A stretch of DNA of 64,000 nucleotides from Minisyncoccia bacterium (GTDB lineage Bacteria; Patescibacteriota; Minisyncoccia; Phycocordibacterales; UBA9973), in the NCBI GenBank assembly GCA_049287305.1, contig JBAQFO010000009.1, positions 108,558 through 172,557 on the forward strand, read 5' to 3'. Numbering within the stretch: position 1 is the stretch's first letter; each line of letters opens with the position of its first letter. This document shows positions 1-56,736 of this stretch, in pieces. A program made the translations under genes and the position numbers. The notes under the pieces are model-generated. The model worked only from the letters and a program-made list of their open reading frames with translations, was not told the DNA's origin and did not search any database.

Positions 1-592
1 AGTATCCGAAAACATCATGCACTAGCGCGAAAAGAACATTACCGTCTTTAATGCTATATACCAGCGCTCCGCCTTTTTTGTCTATCGGAAGTTTGGAAAT
101 ATCCACGGGTTCGTTTGCCTTTTTCTTTTTGCTTTCCTGTTCTTTGCCGGGTTCGCCTATTTCTTTGTATACGGCACCAAGGACGCCGTTGACGAATTTG
201 CCGGAGTTTTCTCCGCCGAAAGTTTTCGCAAGTTCAATAGCTTCGTTGATGGCAACCTTTGGAGGAACTTCTTTGCGGTCGCCGAACAAAAGCTCGGTAA
301 GGCCGATTCTGAGTATATTTCTGTCCACTACCGATATTTTATCTATCGGCCAGTCGGGAGCCGCCTTTTCTATAATTTCATCAATAACCCCGCGTTTTTT
401 TAGAACTTGGTCAATCAAAGAAAATACAAAAATGTCATCCTCAAAACCGGGGGCGAATTCGTTTAAATTTCTTTTCAGAACTTCCTTTATTTCTTCCGGC
501 GTAGGATTGGCGTTCTTTTTTTCATCTCCGGAGAAATCCCACTCAAAAAGCGTCTGCAGAACTATTGATCTAGAAAGGTGCCTATTTGCCAT
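1..592 (-). CDS. nusB: Transcription antitermination factor NusB, 5'-complete, C-terminally extended and running off the window start
   Basis: Manual translation of the reverse strand from ATG at 592-590 gives [20 protein letters not shown]...[31 protein letters not shown], the NusB signature. It is followed by a K-rich linker and a new domain start ([20 protein letters not shown]) with no stop before position 1. Confidence 0.8.
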
Positions 593-642
593 TGTTTAAA
601 AACAAATTACTTATTTACAAATTTGCGAAAGCGCTCTTTGGG

Positions 643-873
643 TTACTTGACTGCTTCAGCTTTCTTGGCCTTGGCTTTCTTTTGCTTCTTTTCGGTCTTT
701 TTTATCAAATCCAGAACCTTTTTGCCACGGTAAAATCCGCACTGGGAGCAAACCGTGTGTCGTCTCTTTAATGCTTTGCAATTCTCACATGCCGTAAAAC
801 TGGTGCTTTTTAGCGCATGATGCGAGCGCCTGTTTTTCGTATGCGATTTTGTATGTCTCATTCGTACTACCAT
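643..873 (-). CDS. rpmF: 50S ribosomal protein L32 with K-rich C-terminal tail
   Basis: Shows the L32 consensus pattern: basic N-terminus (MVVRMRHTKSHTKNRRSHHAL) and CENC...CSQC zinc-ribbon cysteines. Confidence 0.8.
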   Translation of the reverse strand: MVVRMRHTKSHTKNRRSHHALKSTSFTACENCKALKRRHTVCSQCGFYRGKKVLDLIKKTEKKQKKAKAKKAEAVK

Positions 874-956
874 AATCTGCTTATACTAGCATATTAAACC
901 CGAAATGCAAATCAGCCCCGTATTGCAAAGGTTAAAAATGTGATATCATTAAATAC

Positions 957-2204
957 ATGGAAAAAGACGAAATAAAGGAAGAGAGCCGAGACCATAAAAA
1001 GATAGGCCGAGAGCTGGAATTATTTACCTTTAGCGACACCGTAGGTAAAGGGCTGCCCTTGTGGCTACCAAAAGGAGCAACTGTGCGACGAGAACTTGAA
1101 CGCTTTATCGTGGACGAGGAGTTGAGGCGTGGATATCTCCATGTTCGCACTCCTGACATCGCCAAGCTTGACCTATATAAAAAATCCGGGCACTACCCTC
1201 ATTACAAAGATTCCATGTATGCGCCTATTCAGATAGACGATGAGGAGTTCATGCTCCGCCCGATGACTTGCCCGCACCATTTTGAACTTTTTCTATCTAA
1301 ACCTCATAGCTATAGAGAGCTTCCCATGCGTATTGCCGAGCTTGCCCAACTATATCGCTACGAGCAATCTGGCGAACTGATGGGACTACAAAGAGTGCGC
1401 ACCTTCTGCTTGGCTGACGCGCATATTATATGCGCGAACGAAGAACAGGCAGTAGAGGAAATCGGCAAAGCTTTGGACCTGATTGAATATGTGACTTCTG
1501 TGTTTAATTTGAAACTCGACGTTGATTATAGATACAGGTTGTCCTTGGGCGACCGAAACAATACTGAAAAGTATTATAAAAATGACGAGGCGTGGGAAAA
1601 AGGCGAAGACCTATTACGCAAATTAATGCAGAAACGCGGAAGCAAGTTTGAAGAAGCAAAAGATGAAGCTGCCTTCTACGGCCCGAAGGTGGATATTCAA
1701 ATGAAAAATGTTAATGGCAAGGAAGATACTGCTTTTACCGTTCAATACGACTTCTGCATGCCAGGAAGATTTAATCTTAACTATATAGGGGAGGACGGCA
1801 AGGACCATTTAGCTTTCGTGGTGCATCGCTCATCCATAGGAGCAATTGAGAGAATCATGGCGTTTTTAATAGAAAAATACGGAGCTGCCTTCCCTCTTTG
1901 GCTTGCGCCAGTTCAGGTAAAAGTCATCCCGGTTCGGGAAAATCATAACGAATATGCTAAGGAAGTTTATGAAATGCTTAAGGCCGAGAATATCAGAGCA
2001 GAGCTTGATACTGCGGATTCAAATCTTGGAGGAAAGGTTCGCCATGCTAAAGAAGAAAAAATGCCATATTGGGTAGTCATCGGCGACAAGGAAATAGAAG
2101 CGAAGAAAGTCACCCTGGAATCACGGGACGCCGGCCAACTTGGACAAATATCCAAAGAAGAATTAGTTTCTAAATTATTAGAAGAAATTAAAAATAAAAA
2201 ATAA
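957..2204 (+). CDS. thrS: Threonyl-tRNA synthetase, catalytic core plus anticodon-binding domain only (lacks N-terminal TGS/editing domains)
   Basis: Starts at RDHKKIGRELELF (the class II ThrRS motif-1 region) and has TCPHHF, FCLADAH and a C-terminal anticodon-binding domain. It is 415 aa against ~640 aa for canonical ThrRS. Confidence 0.9.
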   Translation: MEKDEIKEESRDHKKIGRELELFTFSDTVGKGLPLWLPKGATVRRELERFIVDEELRRGYLHVRTPDIAKLDLYKKSGHYPHYKDSMYAPIQIDDEEFMLRPMTCPHHFELFLSKPHSYRELPMRIAELAQLYRYEQSGELMGLQRVRTFCLADAHIICANEEQAVEEIGKALDLIEYVTSVFNLKLDVDYRYRLSLGDRNNTEKYYKNDEAWEKGEDLLRKLMQKRGSKFEEAKDEAAFYGPKVDIQMKNVNGKEDTAFTVQYDFCMPGRFNLNYIGEDGKDHLAFVVHRSSIGAIERIMAFLIEKYGAAFPLWLAPVQVKVIPVRENHNEYAKEVYEMLKAENIRAELDTADSNLGGKVRHAKEEKMPYWVVIGDKEIEAKKVTLESRDAGQLGQISKEELVSKLLEEIKNKK

Positions 2205-14150: not shown

Positions 14151-14236
14151 GCGGAGGGTAGGAGATTCGAACTCCTGGTGGATTGCTCCACACACGCTTT
14201 CCAAGCGTGCGCACTAGACCGCTATGCGAACCCTCC
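14151..14236 (-). tRNA. tRNA-Ser (anticodon GGA), type II with long variable arm
   Basis: Hand-folded: acceptor GGAGGGT/ACCCTCC, anticodon stem CACGC/GCGTG with loop TTGGAAA (anticodon GGA), variable arm, T-arm AGGAG-TTCGAAT-CTCCT, discriminator G. No encoded CCA. Confidence 0.85.
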
Positions 14237-14270: not shown

Positions 14271-14321
14271 CGCTTTCCAAGTCTATATCCCTTCGGCACT
14301 AGACCGCTATGCGAACCCTCC
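14271..14321 (-). pseudogene. Partial duplicate of the tRNA-Ser(GGA) 5' half (acceptor 5' strand, D-arm and anticodon loop/3' stem)
   Basis: gcactagaccgctatgcgaaccctcc (14296-14321) is identical to 14211-14236 and cgctttccaag (14271-14281) is identical to 14196-14206, with 14 unrelated nt replacing the 5' anticodon-stem strand. There is no T-arm or 3' acceptor. Confidence 0.55.
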
Positions 14322-44542: not shown

Positions 44543-46468
44543 TTACTTGACTCCTTGCGGTGGCGCCACTAAATCTTTCTTCTTTAGAAGTATTCCGTGA
44601 GCAACCAGTATTTTTTCGTATTCGTCTTGCTCTATGGTTTCCACTTCTATTAGTTTATGGGCTATGGCAGTAAAGGCTTTTTTGTGTTCATTCAGAACTT
44701 TTTCCGCGGACTTAAGTCCGTCATTGATAATTCGCGAAACTTCTCCGTCTACCTTGGTTGCCAAGTTTTCAGAAAGTTCTTTTTCCGGAATATCGCCGTA
44801 TTGAGCCCGTCCAGGAGAATCTGCCAGCGCAATCGGGCCAATAAGATCGGACATTCCCCATCTTGTCACCATCGCCCGGGCTAGGTTGGTCGCAACTTGC
44901 AAATCGCTTGATGGTCCCGTTGTTATGTCTCCGAAAATCATCTGCTCCGCAACATATCCACCAAGCGACATCGCGATGTCATCTATAAATTCTTTTTTGG
45001 ATTGCAATCTTTTTTCTTCAAGCGGAAGTTTGAGTGTGTATCCGCCGGCGTTGCCTCGAGAAATAATTGAAACTTTGTGAACTGGGTCGGCGTAAGGAAG
45101 GACAGACGCTACGATGGCGTGTCCGGCTTCGTGATAAGCGGTAATTTCTTTTTCTTTCTTTGAAAGCAGGTGGCTCTTTCTCTCGGGTCCAAGCATAACT
45201 TTTTCTATCGCCCGGATAAGGTCAAACTGAAAAACTTTTTTCCTGTTCTCTCGTGCCGCAAGTATCGCACCTTCATTCATAAGAGAATATAAATCCGCGC
45301 CGGAGAATCCCGGAGTTCTCTCGGCGATTAATTTCAAATTAATATCTTCGGCGAGCGGTTTTTTGAGCGCGTGAATATTCAATATCGCTTCACGGTCGGA
45401 ACGGTCCGGTAAATCAAGAATCACTTTTCTGTCAAAGCGACCCGGACGCACAAGCGCGGGGTCTAGAACATCGGGCCTGTTGGTCGCCGCCATAACTATA
45501 ACTTTATCGTTCGGTTCAAAGCCGTCCATCTCCACCAATATTTGGTTTAATGTTTGTTCCCGCTCATCGTTCCCTCCGCCGAATCCTCCCCCGCGAGTGC
45601 GTCCTATGGCGTCTATTTCATCCACGAATATGATTGCGGGTGCCGCTCTTTTGGCCATTTTGAAAAGATCTCGCACCCTGGATGCTCCTACTCCCACAAA
45701 CATTTCCACAAATTCGCTTCCAGATAAGTGGAAAAATGGCACAGAGGCTTCTCCTGCTACCGCCCGGGCAAGCAAAGTCTTCCCCGTTCCCGGCGCGCCG
45801 GTAAGCATTACTCCTTTTGGAATTCTGGCTCCAATATCTAAAAATTTCTTGGGACTCTTCAGAAAATCCACAATTTCTTTTAGTTCTTCCTTCGCCTCCT
45901 TGCATCCGGCAACATCTTTGAAAGTTACCTTGTTGTTCTTGTCGTTGGGGTCAGTGATGCGCGCTTTGGACTGGCCGAAGGTGAACGCCTGCATCCCTGC
46001 TCCTTTGACCTGTCGGGACAAATACCAGAAAAATAAAAGTATGAAGACTATGGGCAGAAGAAACGGCAAGATATTCACCAACCAGAAAGTAAAGCCGCTT
46101 TCGTTTTTTATTTGTATCTCGGTTTCTGCAAGAGCTTCCGGCTTCACACCGTAGTTAAAGAGCGTTTGAGACAATGCGGAGTTAACTTCTTTTTTGGTTG
46201 TTTTTATTTCTTCATTTTTATAAGTTACCGTGAGCTTGTCTCCTTCCACTAAAATGCTTTTAACTTCCCCCGCTGAAACATTCTGGGCAAGTTCGGAAAT
46301 GGCGATTTCGGGAATTTCTTTCTTGTCTCCGGATATCATCAAATAAAATGCCGTAATGAGCATGAAGAAAACCACAGCCCCTAAAATGTTGTTGCTGAAC
46401 TTTGTCTGCTTCGGAAGCTTTTTCCCCTTTCTTTCGGGCTCTTTTTGATTAAGAAAATTTAAATCCAT
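44543..46468 (-). CDS. ftsH: ATP-dependent zinc metalloprotease FtsH
   Basis: Two N-terminal TMs, AAA module ([25 protein letters not shown], second region of homology), and protease HEAGHAIV. Confidence 0.9.
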
Positions 46469-46666
46469 AGGGGCAATAATAGCACAAAAAACACCAAATG
46501 TGAAATTGGTTTTTATTCTTTCTATTTAAATAATCTACAAACCTATAAAAATAAGATTTTGGAAAAATGACGGCAACGGAACCATTCCAAAATAACCAGC
46601 AACAAGGTAAACGATTACCAAAACTATAATAATTAATAAATATTTCATATCAAATATTATACTACT

Positions 46667-46683
46667 TTTGTGGAGATGGGGGA
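46667..46683. repeat. 17-nt direct repeat ttgtggagatgggggaa. The second copy (46822-46838) is the 3' terminus of the tmRNA gene
   Basis: Exact 17/17 identity at 46667-46683 and 46822-46838, spacing 155 bp. The intervening segment holds the ssrA terminator hairpin. Confidence 0.7.
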
Positions 46684-46785
46684 ACGAGCTACAAATATTT
46701 TTCTGCTGAAAAATTTCGCAGCCCCACCTCAGTCGCCTTCGCTCCCTCCGGCTATTCGATTTCCCTCTTATTTCTACCGGCAACG

Positions 46786-46820
46786 CAAAATAAAACTGCC
46801 ATTTAGGCAGTTTTATTTTG
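46786..46820 (-). terminator. Rho-independent terminator immediately 3' of the tmRNA gene
   Basis: aaaactgcc-attta-ggcagtttt hairpin with flanking A/T runs. Confidence 0.6.
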
Positions 46821-46824
46821 ATTG

Positions 46825-47223
46825 TGGAGATGGGGGAAATCGAATCCCCGTGCAGAAGGTTTTTGTAAGGACGTCTACATGTTTAGCGCGCTTTTTGTTT
46901 TAAATTAAAAAATTATGAAACGCGCCAAATATTTTTTAATCGATTCTCTTTGTTTCGGAAGAAAGCCGAGACATTCTTTTTCCTATCCCGATTATGTTAT
47001 GCCCGCTCTTGTATATCGGAAGTCCACAAGAGAGACACGAGCTTACGCTAAAGCGGAAACTCGAGCAAAAGCGAAATCATTCATACCGAAGTATGGAGAG
47101 ACTGCGACTCTTACCTTGGAAGCTAATTTTGCAATTAAGCTATTGAACGACTTTTTACGAGATTACGTTCATGCTCGACATGCACCGATGACAAAAGGCC
47201 AACTGTCTATGCCTTGCATCCCC
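46825..47223 (-). ncRNA. ssrA: tmRNA (ssrA), about 399 nt, directly downstream of smpB
   Basis: Reverse strand starts GGGGAUGCAAGG... and ends ...GGGGAUUCGAUUUCCCCCAUCUCCA: a tRNA-like acceptor (GGGGAUG pairs with CAUCUCC, with G3-U as in E. coli), T-arm GGGGA-UUCGAUU-UCCCC and discriminator A. It has an internal GGUGCAUG and an exact CUCGUAAAAAG block as in E. coli tmRNA, and a tag-like reading frame ending ...AFARVSALA-UAA (stop at 47045-47043). Confidence 0.8.
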
Positions 47224-47245
47224 ATATTTTTTTCTCAATGTTCGT

Positions 47246-47692
47246 TTATCTCTCTTTGTATTCCCTTCGGAGTTCTCTGTCCGTTTCACGTTTTTTTATC
47301 GTGTCCCGTTTATCAAATTTTTTCTTGCCTTTGACTAAAGCAATTTCCACTTTTATCTTTCTGCCTTTATTATACACTGAAATTGGCACTATTGTCAAAC
47401 TCTTGTTTTTTTCACTCCCCGTAAGCTCGTTTATTTCTTTCTTGGTCAAGAGCAACTTCCGGTTGCGAAGCGGGTCATAGTCGCTCGGAGCATTTTTGGC
47501 CTGATATGGCGGAATATTTGCGTTAATTATATACGCTTCTCCCCCGCGAATAATGACAAAAGCCCCCTCAAGAGATACCTGCCCGCCCCGAACGGATTTC
47601 ACCTCCGTGCCCAAAAGCTCAATACCTGTTTCGTATTTTTCCAAGATTTCATAGTTAAATCGCGCCTTCCTGTTTTCAGCGTAAATCGCCAT
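47246..47692 (-). CDS. smpB: SsrA-binding protein SmpB
   Basis: MAIYAENRKARFNYEILEKYETGIELLGTEVKSVRGG... is a near-canonical SmpB. Confidence 0.9.
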   Translation of the reverse strand: MAIYAENRKARFNYEILEKYETGIELLGTEVKSVRGGQVSLEGAFVIIRGGEAYIINANIPPYQAKNAPSDYDPLRNRKLLLTKKEINELTGSEKNKSLTIVPISVYNKGRKIKVEIALVKGKKKFDKRDTIKKRETDRELRREYKER

Positions 47693-47765
47693 AATTACAT
47701 ATTATCATATGTGTTGACTTTAGCCTTCAAATACGCTATTATCCCCTGGTAGTCATAGGCTTTAA

Positions 47766-48287
47766 TTGCCTTACTTATATCAATTGCGCGAAAGAATAAA
47801 CAACCAAATACGGGCTAAGGAACTTCGGGTCCTGGACAGCGAAAACAAAAATCTAGGTGTTTTAAGTATCAGAGATGCTCTGGAAATGGCACAGAGTAAG
47901 GGTTTGGACTTAATTGAAATATCCCCGAACGGCAACCCCCCTATAGCCAAGTTGATGGATTTCGGCAAGTATCAGTATGAGGCCAATAAAAAATTAAAGA
48001 AGGCAAAAGCGGGCGCAAACAAGACAGAGACCAAGTCAATCCAGATAAAGATAGGCACCGGAGACCATGACCTGGAATTAAAGGCAAAAACGGCATCCAA
48101 GTGGATAAAGGAAGGCCACAGGATAAAAGTAGAACTCTTTCTTGCCGGACGAGCCAAATACATGGATGAGAAATTTTTAAGGGAGCGATTGGACAGAGTG
48201 CTTCATTTGATTACCGAAGATTATAAGGTTTCAGATAATTATAAAAAGGGTCCGAAAGGTTTGACTATAACAATAGAAAAAAAATAA
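47766..48287 (+). CDS. infC: Translation initiation factor IF-3 (start codon uncertain, non-ATG)
   Basis: INNQIRAKELRVLDSENKNLGVLSIRDALEMAQSKGLDLIEISPNGNPPIAKLMDFGKYQYE is the IF3 N- and C-domains. The frame opens with TTG; infC commonly uses atypical starts. Confidence 0.85.
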   Translation: MPYLYQLRERINNQIRAKELRVLDSENKNLGVLSIRDALEMAQSKGLDLIEISPNGNPPIAKLMDFGKYQYEANKKLKKAKAGANKTETKSIQIKIGTGDHDLELKAKTASKWIKEGHRIKVELFLAGRAKYMDEKFLRERLDRVLHLITEDYKVSDNYKKGPKGLTITIEKK

Positions 48288-56628: not shown

Positions 56629-56736
56629 AAAGGCAATAATTAATAAATTAAGAGACTTGGGAGCGCGACGGCGCAAGCACGAGGAATTTTTTAACAAAAA
56701 AATATCCGTGCTCTTAATTTATTAATTATTGCCTTT
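56629..56736. repeat. 26-bp perfect inverted repeat (aaaggcaataattaataaattaagag / ctcttaatttattaattattgccttt) around a 56-nt GC-richer spacer; the right arm overlaps the map stop codon
   Basis: Arms at 56629-56654 and 56711-56736 are exact reverse complements. The spacer contains the gcgc-gacg-gcgc mini-hairpin. On the minus strand the structure is followed by a U-run. Confidence 0.7.

What the first reader, a model, noticed from the sequence alone, without database searches (positions are those of the whole stretch)
46667..46838. Exact 17-nt direct duplication of the tmRNA 3' end (att-like scar) 155 bp downstream of ssrA
ttgtggagatgggggaa occurs at 46822-46838 (the last 17 nt of the tmRNA, minus strand TTCCCCCATCTCCACAA) and again at 46667-46683, just before the ftsH promoter TATAAT. 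The 3' end of ssrA is a classic integrase target, and integration duplicates exactly such a terminal segment. Only about 138 bp (the terminator plus a short GC-richer stretch) lies between the copies, so this looks like attL/attR left after loss of an element or a minimal remnant. The second copy positions a tRNA-like acceptor 3' sequence inside the ftsH leader.
Basis: seen in the sequence. Interest (0 to 1): 0.55.

Follow-up and report, generated by a model that had tools for sequence, protein, structure and literature searches.

The report
Small palindromic insert duplicating tmRNA end
The repeated 17 bases are real and mark the far edge of a 137-base insert behind the tmRNA gene; the insert carries a conserved hairpin element, not matched by any Rfam family, that recurs behind tRNA-type genes in related Patescibacteria.

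Summary
TTGTGGAGATGGGGGAA occurs exactly twice, at 46668-46684 and 46822-46838. On the minus strand it is the last 17 nt of a bona fide tmRNA (47223-46822), from the last T-loop base to the 3' end.

The repeat behaves like a regenerated gene end plus a displaced fragment. Relatives show clean empty sites, with ssrA followed within 30-60 nt by the ftsH promoter. One relative, L150, has the same insert ending in a second copy directly in front of that promoter.

The 137 nt between the copies are not debris of a lost island. They are a terminator hairpin, an inverted T-arm copy and a conserved hairpin core. That core belongs to a family found at 17 or more places in related Patescibacteria, including window 56632-56733. 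Its stem shows compensatory changes at 12 of 15 pairs, and no Rfam family matches it.

The layout "gene 3' end, hairpin, inverted copy, core, direct copy" recurs at tmRNA, tRNA-Ile and tRNA-Ser genes. No integrase lies in the window, and the mobilising enzyme is unknown. Other relatives carry a serine-recombinase prophage or cargo genes at the same junction, so the ssrA 3' end is an insertion hot spot.

The parts
47246..47692 (-). smpB (148 aa), directly upstream of ssrA
   Evidence: The ORF translation is SmpB-like, and Pfam SmpB is recorded for the orthologue in L205. It is 81-91% identical in close relatives.
46822..47223 (-). ssrA (tmRNA); CCA is not encoded and the 3' tail is ACAA
   Evidence: Rfam RF00023 scores 110.8 bits, E 1.9e-42, over the full-length model.
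46822..46838 (-). X1: 17-mer TTCCCCCATCTCCACAA, the functional 3' end of the tmRNA
   Evidence: The same 17-mer ends the tmRNA in about 39 related metagenomic loci.
46786..46820 (-). Terminator-type hairpin: 15-bp perfect stem, 5-nt loop, A-tract and T-tract inside the stem
   Evidence: Inverted repeat I3 and the MFE fold. It is homologous in L150, L058/L189, L154, L155 and L176.
46749..46778 (-). X': diverged inverted copy of the tmRNA 3' end. The best part, GGGAAATCGAATAGCCG, matches the reverse complement of the T arm at 15 of 17 positions. It forms the 5' strand of a degenerate outer stem with X2.
   Evidence: Inverted repeat I4. It is conserved in L150 and L058. In L011 the equivalent AGGAATCGA pairs perfectly with TCGATTCCT and follows L011's own T-arm sequence.
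46688..46748 (-). Conserved core: linker GAGGGAGCGAAGGCGACTGAGGTGGG plus hairpin P2 (46722-46688; 15 bp, one bulged A, loop AGCA)
   Evidence: CM R1 scores 80.5 bits. P2 covariation is 9 of 15 pairs and 12 of 15 pairs in 17 sequences.
46668..46684 (-). X2: second exact copy of the 17-mer, at the distal boundary of the insert
   Evidence: Equivalent copies are L150 7245-7261 (17 nt identical, shifted by 2), L011 (20 of 22), L024 and L122 (decayed).
46535..46661 (-). TATAAT (46661-46656) plus a 37-codon hydrophobic ORF (46648-46535). It may be a remnant of a cassette that sits directly after ssrA in L122/L152.
   Evidence: The start region resembles the promoter and start of the lycopene-cyclase-domain gene of L122/L152. 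This is suggestive only.
46476..46504 (-). Promoter-like site TTCACA-17-(TG)TATTAT in front of ftsH, conserved in empty-site relatives
   Evidence: alignment with L001, L150, L174, L124 and L086.
44543..46468 (-). ftsH (641 aa)
   Evidence: 82-90% identical in the closest GTDB genomes.
56632..56733 (+). Second member of the element family in the window: a 23-bp perfect outer stem (56632-56654 with 56711-56733) encloses the core. It lies between map and an ATPase gene, antisense to both.
   Evidence: CM R1 scores 67 bits. Sequence. Outer-stem duplex -33 kcal/mol, z = -8.6.

Best explanation
Copy 2 (X2) is the displaced 3' fragment of ssrA. It marks the distal edge of a 137-bp insert that entered at the T-loop/3' end of the tmRNA gene and rebuilt that end, as an attL/attR pair does. 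The insert is a complete small unit: a terminator hairpin, an inverted copy of the gene end, and a conserved two-hairpin core. The core belongs to a family of small palindromic elements in Paceibacteria-type Patescibacteria. Members sit behind tmRNA, tRNA-Ile and tRNA-Ser genes, at the apex of long hairpin stems between genes (behind rplT these look like terminators), and once in frame inside glmM. I commit to site-specific (att-type) recombination at the tDNA end, catalysed in trans by an unidentified recombinase, followed by vertical inheritance. Easy precise loss by recombination between the two copies explains the empty sites. The ssrA 3' boundary is a hot spot where units pile up, newest next to the gene, and then decay. 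Shown: the duplication, the filled and empty sites, the family and its structure, and the recurrent layout at three kinds of tDNA. Inferred: the direction of the event, its enzyme, and mobility itself.
For: (1) Filled versus empty sites. L150 reads ssrA-X1 / insert (90% identical) / X2 / ftsH promoter / ATG. L001, L174, L124, L086 and L103 read ssrA-X / ftsH promoter / ATG. By SmpB identity the empty-site genomes L086 (90%), L124 (89%) and L001 (86%) are closer to the window than filled L150 (83%), and distant L011 and L024 (61-65%) are also filled. The distribution is therefore patchy. (2) The same layout occurs at other tDNAs. For tRNA-Ile, L001 carries an ~88-nt insert flanked by GACGGACA, where the window has the uninterrupted GACGGACAC, and L058 is alike. 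For tRNA-Ser(gct) in L205, the core is followed by CGAATCTCGCCGGCTCGCA, a copy of the gene end starting in the T-loop. That copy keeps the ancestral CGGCTC seen in the window and L003, while the working gene has changed both acceptor strands (GGAGACG/CGTCTCC). A displaced fragment would behave this way. (3) L011 has two near-identical units. One ends in a tmRNA-type fragment and the other in a different tRNA-type fragment that is in register (TCGATT-CCCAG-TATCTAC-A-CCA). They flank one gene. (4) The core is a real structured family. R1 hits score 22-90 bits at 17 sites. 12 of 15 P2 pairs show compensatory changes, 88% of cells are paired, and 0 of 500 shuffles reach this. No Rfam match was found. 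(5) Selfish-DNA behaviour. There is an in-frame insertion in glmM of L003. Orientations are opposite at the same smpB-ssrA spacer in L096 and L155. (6) Hot spot. Different cargo abuts the same CCACAA junction: a serine-recombinase prophage (L205/L206; remnants in L133, L183, L137), a membrane-protein gene followed by a decayed unit plus X2 in L122, a P-type ATPase in L003 and a secreted protein in L058. In both the window and L122 the unit next to ssrA is intact and the distal one is decayed.
Against: No recombinase, circular form or autonomous relative of the unit was found. The window has no integrase-like ORF. The flanking repeat varies in length (7-8 nt at tRNA-Ile, 17-22 nt at tmRNA and tRNA-Ser), so it is not a fixed target-site duplication. 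The inverted copy X' and the rebuilt gene end are specific to each target, which a single mobile sequence cannot carry. This requires either target-adapted sublineages or a mechanism that copies the target. The unit is more conserved than the tmRNA, which fits host function as well as selfish maintenance. Outer stems of the tDNA-linked copies are weak today (z about 0 to -1.5). L011's second unit lacks a clean left junction with a tRNA. All comparisons rest on fragments of metagenome-assembled genomes.
Confidence: 0.55

Rival explanations
1. Host-maintained structured module of local origin. The terminator, X', core and X2 form a functional RNA or DNA element coupled to tRNA-type genes, for example in termination, insulation, 3' processing or protein binding. 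X' and X2 arose by local template switching (direct-inverted-direct triplication of the gene end) and persist because they form the outer stem. Empty sites are deletions.
For: The module is more conserved than the tmRNA. It sits at orthologous places across genera: ssrA 3' end in the window, L150, L011 and L024; tRNA-Ile in L001 and L058; rplT terminator in L138 and L140. P2 shows strong covariation with conserved G-U pairs, which is strand-specific. X' follows the local T-arm sequence. Most copies (about 10 of 14) are in sense orientation to the neighbouring gene. The MFE of the window region is unusually stable (z = -4.8).
Against: There are copies antisense to flanking genes (window 56632-56733, L019, L155) and inside a coding region (L003 glmM). 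X2 and X' decay freely in L024, L122 and L205-Ser. Close relatives manage without it. L011 holds two near-identical copies with different flanks.
Confidence: 0.25
2. One reading: attL/attR of a former large island or prophage whose interior was deleted, leaving 137 bp of junk.
For: Prophages and cargo genes do occupy this junction in relatives. L137 keeps only about 23 nt of the recombinase gene, a genuine scar.
Against: The 137 nt are shared as a unit with L150, L011 and L024 and are under constraint. They contain a complete family member also found away from ssrA. There is no similarity to the recombinase-prophage junction TCGGGAAAGTTC. The serine-recombinase prophage shows no second tmRNA-end copy within 8.6 kb.
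Confidence: 0.1
3. Chance repeat or assembly artefact.
For: The 17-mer occurs by chance in many unrelated metagenome contigs.
Against: Shuffles never exceed 15 nt locally. The arrangement is reproduced in independent assemblies (L150, L011).
Confidence: 0.01

Closest known systems
Genomic islands and prophages integrated in tRNA/tmRNA genes by tyrosine integrases (Islander model; T-loop sublocation)
   Same: There is an intact gene plus a displaced 3' fragment in the same orientation. The identity block runs from the T-loop to the gene end. The element supplies the new 3' end and a terminator. Relatives have empty sites. Tandem pile-up places the newest unit next to the gene (PMC4383910; bioRxiv 10.1101/2020.11.02.365908).
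   Different: The interval is 137 bp with no integrase or any gene. The interior is a conserved palindromic element that also occurs away from tDNAs. An inverted copy of the target is part of the unit.
CIMEs (cis-mobilisable elements: att-flanked units without recombination genes, described for ICESt1-type elements of Streptococcus thermophilus; from my own knowledge, not read here)
   Same: The unit is att-flanked, gene-less and sits at a tDNA-type hot spot next to other integrated units. It would need a recombinase supplied in trans.
   Different: No autonomous element sharing its att and arm sequences was found. The size is one to two orders of magnitude smaller. The family also occurs in hairpin apices and in a coding region.
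Rickettsia palindromic elements (RPE) and other bacterial palindromic MITE-like repeats such as REP/BIME and Correia (own knowledge; PMC1458961 and PMC1779305 were only listed, not read)
   Same: These are palindromic units of about 100-150 nt in small genomes. Copies are intergenic and there is at least one in-frame copy inside a protein gene (L003 glmM). Both orientations occur, and the stem is maintained by compensatory change.
   Different: The host phylum is different and there is no sequence relation. Here a conserved asymmetric core sits between arms that vary from site to site, and copies at tDNAs are flanked by copies of the gene's 3' end.
Large-serine-recombinase prophage at the ssrA 3' end of related Patescibacteria (L205/L206)
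   Same: It uses exactly the same junction at the tmRNA 3' end in the same clade.
   Different: It is a gene-bearing prophage-like element whose recombinase gene overlaps the tmRNA end by 12 nt. It shares no sequence with the window's insert, and no long duplicated gene end was seen.

Membership tests
tmRNA (RF00023), for the gene that owns copy 1 | Covariance-model score above the gathering threshold over the full model, including tRNA-like acceptor and T arm with G3-U70 | tested here: met
   110.8 bits against 47, model positions 1-374. The acceptor is GGGGAUG/CAUCUCC. ARAGORN did not call it.
tDNA-integrated genomic island (Islander criteria) | Intact tDNA plus a cognate tDNA fragment in the same orientation on the same replicon | tested here: met
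   X1 at 46822-46838 and X2 at 46668-46684, both on the minus strand.
tDNA-integrated genomic island (Islander criteria) | The fragment starts at a recognised crossover sublocation (T-loop or anticodon loop) and runs to the gene's 3' end | tested here: met
   The exact identity starts at the last T-loop base, and weaker identity (TCG) reaches into the loop. In L011 and L205-Ser the copy starts at T-loop position 2-3.
tDNA-integrated genomic island (Islander criteria) | A tyrosine integrase gene lies inside the interval | tested here: not met
   The interval is 137 nt with no ORF. No integrase-like ORF was recognised by eye anywhere in the 64-kb window, without a profile search.
tDNA-integrated genomic island (Islander criteria) | An unoccupied attB exists in related genomes | tested here: met
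   L001, L174, L124/L134, L086 and L103 have ssrA followed after 28-62 nt by ftsH.
CIME-type non-autonomous integrative element | An autonomous element with the same att core and arms exists and could supply the recombinase | tested here: inconclusive
   A serine-recombinase prophage uses the same junction but shares no arm sequence. Viral-contig scans for the 17-mer and for the core motif gave only context-free hits.
MITE | Terminal inverted repeats conserved among copies | tested here: inconclusive
   One subfamily shares GAATTACGAAA-type arms across three genomes (L008a/b, L058c, L205b). Other copies have unrelated arms.
MITE | Target-site duplication of fixed length | tested here: not met
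   The flanking repeat is 7-8 nt at tRNA-Ile, 17-22 nt at tmRNA and about 19 nt at tRNA-Ser. None is obvious at stand-alone copies.
MITE | A related transposase-encoding parent element exists | not tested
   Only about 1.7 Mb of fragments were available.
Any described RNA family (Rfam 15) | A covariance-model match to the core or the whole insert | tested here: not met
   Nothing reached the gathering score. In E-value mode the only hits were hairpin look-alikes (miRNA precursors, terminator ends) far below their thresholds.
Structured nucleic-acid element (generic) | Base pairs maintained by compensatory substitutions beyond controls | tested here: met
   P2 has 9 of 15 pairs with double changes in a MAFFT alignment. 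In the model-fitted alignment of 17 sequences, 12 of 15 pairs show double changes, 88% of cells are paired against 41-60% when partners are slid, and 0 of 500 shuffles reach this. P1 pairs GGCT/AGCC, GGCC/GGCC, GCGC/GCGC, GGACT/AGTCC and GGCGT/ACGCC were read directly.

The most novel reading that the evidence does not exclude
The unit is a new kind of miniature mobile element that recognises its target by base pairing. Its inverted segment X', complementary to the last 17-25 nt of a tRNA or tmRNA (the span retroviruses use as a primer-binding site), would act as a guide or primer-binding site. It would direct insertion behind tRNA-type genes, copying the gene end on both sides of a conserved protein-binding hairpin. 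That would make it a target-templated, programmable insertion system in ultra-small Patescibacteria genomes.
Probability: 0.08. Interest if true: 0.85.

Novelty: new variant of a known kind. Interest (0 to 1): 0.5.

Why it matters
Patescibacteria have tiny, streamlined genomes and are thought to carry little mobile DNA. This window shows a compact, conserved palindromic element that repeatedly sits at the 3' ends of tmRNA and tRNA genes, duplicates those ends, and can even sit in frame inside a protein gene. It also shows that the ssrA 3' boundary is a hot spot where prophage, single-gene cargo and these mini-units replace one another. If the unit is mobile, it is the smallest att-flanked tDNA insert I know of, and it raises the question of which enzyme moves it. 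If it is host-functional, it is a new structured element tied to tRNA-type genes. Either way, a covariance model now exists to census it, and tDNA-fragment island finders applied to these genomes should expect such mini-intervals.

Tried and rejected
The following led nowhere or were rejected.

1. An exact look-up of the window's SmpB in the contig index found nothing on record.
2. The 17-mer in viral contigs gave four hits. None has T-loop context, a tmRNA or the core, so I treat them as chance.
3. The core motif AAWTTTTCAGCAGAAAAWTAT in viral contigs gave three hits that match only the 21-23-nt motif and not the element.
4. A metagenome scan for the 17-mer found no contig with two exact copies. 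About one third of hits are tmRNA ends and the rest are chance.
5. Rfam in permissive mode over both window copies found no credible family.
6. I considered the pairing GAGGUGGG/CCCAUCUC seen in the MFE as a designed acceptor-stem mimic. I rejected it as a family feature because GAGGYGGGG is a conserved linker also present at the tRNA-Ser copy, and it does not covary with X2.
7. I considered that the core simply dropped into pre-existing terminator loops. This fits the stand-alone copies behind rplT. It does not fit the glmM copy, which brings its own arms, or the tDNA-linked layout.
8. I considered IS200/IS605-type, integron attC-type, TnpB guide-RNA-type and IS110 bridge-RNA-type analogies. 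None could be tested, and no such protein lies in the window.
9. My first outer-stem script used wrong windows and crashed. It was redone with model-derived boundaries.
10. Literature searches for a described Patescibacteria repeat of this kind found nothing.

Full report
**Observation**

The window comes from a Patescibacteria genome of the Paceibacterota/Nomurabacteria type. The closest FtsH matches are 82-90% identical MAGs. On the minus strand the order is smpB (47692-47246), ssrA (47223-46822), ftsH (46468-44543) and tRNA-Ile(UAU) (44485-44412).

TTGTGGAGATGGGGGAA occurs exactly twice, at 46668-46684 and 46822-46838. On the minus strand the distal copy X1 is the last T-loop base, the T-stem 3' strand, the acceptor 3' strand and the ACAA tail of the tmRNA. 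In 100 dinucleotide shuffles, local direct repeats never exceed 15 nt.

**What lies between the copies**

Reading from ssrA, the 137 nt contain four parts:
- A perfect 15-bp hairpin with A and T tracts (46786-46820).
- A stretch whose best part, GGGAAATCGAATAGCCG (46765-46749), matches the reverse complement of the T arm at 15 of 17 positions. I call this X'.
- A G+C-richer linker.
- A 15-bp hairpin with one bulge and loop AGCA (P2, 46722-46688).

These are followed by TCG and then X2.

**Relatives: empty, filled and differently filled sites**

The tmRNA 3' end with this 17-mer is shared by about 39 metagenomic loci.
- Empty: in L001, L174, L124/L134, L086 and L103 the gene is followed after 28-62 nt by the ftsH start codon. 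A conserved promoter-like TTTCAC...TGnTAnnAT lies in between.
- Filled: L150 has the same insert (90-93% identical). It ends in ATTTCCCCCATCTCCAC and is followed directly by that ftsH promoter. This is a clean filled-versus-empty pair.
- Partly filled: L058/L189 and L154 keep only the left part (hairpin plus X'). L176 keeps the hairpin and a degenerate X2.
- Filled in distant genomes: L011 and L024 (SmpB 61-65% identical) also have hairpin, X', core and X2 behind their own tmRNA.

By SmpB and FtsH identity, several empty-site genomes are closer to the window than filled L150. The distribution therefore needs repeated loss or repeated gain. The unit is more conserved than the tmRNA: 90% against 82% (window versus L150) and 65% against 51% (window versus L011).

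**The core is a family**

An nhmmer profile and then a covariance model (R1) built from 12 copies found members at 17 places scoring 22-90 bits, plus two weaker copies (L096, L140; about 16 bits):
- Window 46675-46763 and a second window copy at 56644-56725.
- Behind tRNA-Ile in L001 and L058.
- Behind tRNA-Ser(gct) in L205.
- At the apex of the rplT terminator in L138 and L140.
- In the smpB-ssrA spacer of L096 and L155, in opposite orientations.
- Behind ftsH in L019.
- Flanking two genes in L008.
- Inside glmM of L003.

P2 is supported by compensatory change at 9 of 15 pairs in a MAFFT alignment. In the model-fitted alignment of 17 sequences, 12 of 15 pairs show double changes and 88% of cells are paired. 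No shuffle reaches this, and slid controls give 41-60%. That alignment leans towards the model. A second small hairpin, P1, shows GGCT/AGCC, GGCC/GGCC, GCGC/GCGC, GGACT/AGTCC and GGCGT/ACGCC. P1 is degenerate in the tmRNA-linked copies. No Rfam family matches.

Stand-alone copies sit between long, site-specific, often perfect arms (z = -5 to -14 against shuffles). The glmM copy brings its arms and adds roughly 23-38 residues in frame relative to L007 and L155 GlmM.

**Recurrent layout at tRNA-type genes**

At tmRNA, tRNA-Ile and tRNA-Ser the order is always gene 3' end (X1), palindromic hairpin, inverted copy (X'), core, direct copy (X2).
- tRNA-Ile: L001 has an insert of about 88 nt flanked by GACGGACA, where the window reads the uninterrupted GACGGACAC.
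- tRNA-Ser: in L205 X2 starts in the T-loop and keeps the ancestral CGGCTC of the window and L003. The working gene has compensatory GGAGACG/CGTCTCC. X2 is therefore a fossil made before that change, as expected for a displaced fragment.
- L011: two units differing at only a few positions flank a single gene. One ends in a tmRNA-type fragment. The other ends in a different tRNA-type fragment that is exactly in register (T-loop, T stem, acceptor, discriminator, CCA).

**Hot spot**

The junction right after CCACAA carries different neighbours in different genomes.
- Prophage: L205/L206 carry a prophage-like element with an HTH protein, an S24 repressor, a methylase and a tail-fibre-type protein. 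Its large serine recombinase gene converges on ssrA and overlaps it by 12 nt. L133 and L183 keep a 166-residue (L133) or 150-residue (L183) C-terminal remnant of the recombinase, and L137 keeps about 23 nt.
- L122: a lycopene-cyclase-domain membrane gene, followed by a remnant of P2 plus a diverged X2 (TTCCTCCGTCTCCACCA) and then a pPIWI-nuclease-like gene.
- L003 has a P-type ATPase and L058 a secreted protein.

In the window, the stretch after X2 begins like the promoter and start of the L122/L152 membrane gene but encodes only 37 codons. This resemblance is suggestive only. If it is real, both genomes show an intact proximal unit and a decayed distal one, which is the pattern of serial integration at one att site.

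**Mechanism**

The best-supported reading is an att-type insertion of a miniature, gene-less unit at the T-loop/3' end of ssrA. X1 is the rebuilt end and X2 the displaced one. Precise loss between the repeats produces the empty sites.

The weak points are these:
- No recombinase and no circular form were found.
- The repeat length varies with the target.
- X' and the rebuilt end are target-specific.

For these reasons I hold the reading at 0.55. The main rival is a host-maintained structured module of local origin (0.25). The window itself has no integrase- or transposase-like ORF recognisable by eye.

**Comparison with known systems**

The unit works like a tDNA-integrated island (PMC4383910; bioRxiv 10.1101/2020.11.02.365908) but fails the integrase criterion. 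It resembles CIMEs in being att-flanked and gene-less. It resembles Rickettsia palindromic elements in size, palindromy and in-frame insertion. I did not read the CIME or RPE papers here, so those comparisons rest on my own knowledge. I rate it a new variant of a known kind.

**Verdict**

The duplication is real and non-random, and it is att-like in geometry. It is not a lonely scar. It is the boundary of a conserved palindromic unit, matched by no Rfam family and by nothing in my literature searches, that recurs at tRNA-type gene ends in this clade. Interest 0.5.

Noticed in passing
window 14211-14236 and 14296-14321: A second tDNA-fragment duplication. A 26-nt exact direct repeat equals the 5' end (acceptor strand plus D arm) of tRNA-Ser(GGA) (14236-14151, minus strand). 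The upstream copy, just after the ligA stop, continues to a second CTTGGAAAGCG (anticodon loop). It looks like a displaced 5' half only 85 nt from the gene, and no core element is present.
   Followed up: partly
window 56632-56733: A second member of the hairpin-element family, enclosed by a perfect 23-bp AT-rich stem. It lies between map and a 920-aa ATPase gene and is antisense to both. On the gene strand the stem is followed by a T run and probably serves as the map terminator.
   Followed up: yes
L205 7030-9062 (also L206, L133, L183, L137): A prophage-like element in related Patescibacteria is integrated at the ssrA 3' end. Its large serine recombinase gene overlaps the tmRNA end by 12 nt. 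Nearly all 120 listed homologues of the recombinase C-terminal fragment used as query are short or partial, and most lie on short contigs, which suggests assembly breaks at a variable element.
   Followed up: partly
L003 1422-1509 (inside glmM, 522-1943, minus strand): The palindromic element sits in frame inside the phosphoglucosamine mutase gene. It adds a stretch (SVSTHNFLLKICYAWLASLRNAS and flanks) that is absent from L007 and L155 GlmM, much like Rickettsia palindromic elements.
   Followed up: partly
window 46822-47766 versus L002, L007, L011, L152: The smpB-ssrA pair is inverted in place between infC and ftsH in different relatives. In the window ssrA points to ftsH, while in L002, L195, L096 and others it points to infC. 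The cause of the inversion was not identified.
   Followed up: no
window 46535-46648 (minus strand): A 37-codon strongly hydrophobic ORF (MKYLLIIIVLVIVYLVAGYFGMVPLPSFFQNLIFIGL) with its own TATAAT lies just upstream of ftsH. It could be a small membrane protein or the stump of a lost membrane-protein gene. A correctly framed Pfam scan was not obtained, because the reference was offset.
   Followed up: partly
L122 820-1899 nt downstream of ssrA; L152 1-240: Cargo in the ssrA-ftsH interval of close relatives includes a protein with a predicted pPIWI-associated nuclease domain (L122). L152 has what looks, by eye, like the C-terminal part of a DDE (rve-type) transposase truncating the membrane gene; this was not profile-tested.
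   Followed up: no
window 46822-47223: ARAGORN fails to call this tmRNA although Rfam scores it at 110.8 bits. It does call the orthologues in L003, L011 and L019.
   Followed up: no
L008 6214-6301 and 8000-8086: Two element copies in inverted orientation bracket a two-gene block (an unknown 206-aa protein and a LysE-like exporter, identified by eye only). Their GAATTACGAAA-type outer arms are shared with copies in L058 (11903-11992) and L205 (14612-14697), which resembles conserved terminal repeats of a subfamily.
   Followed up: partly
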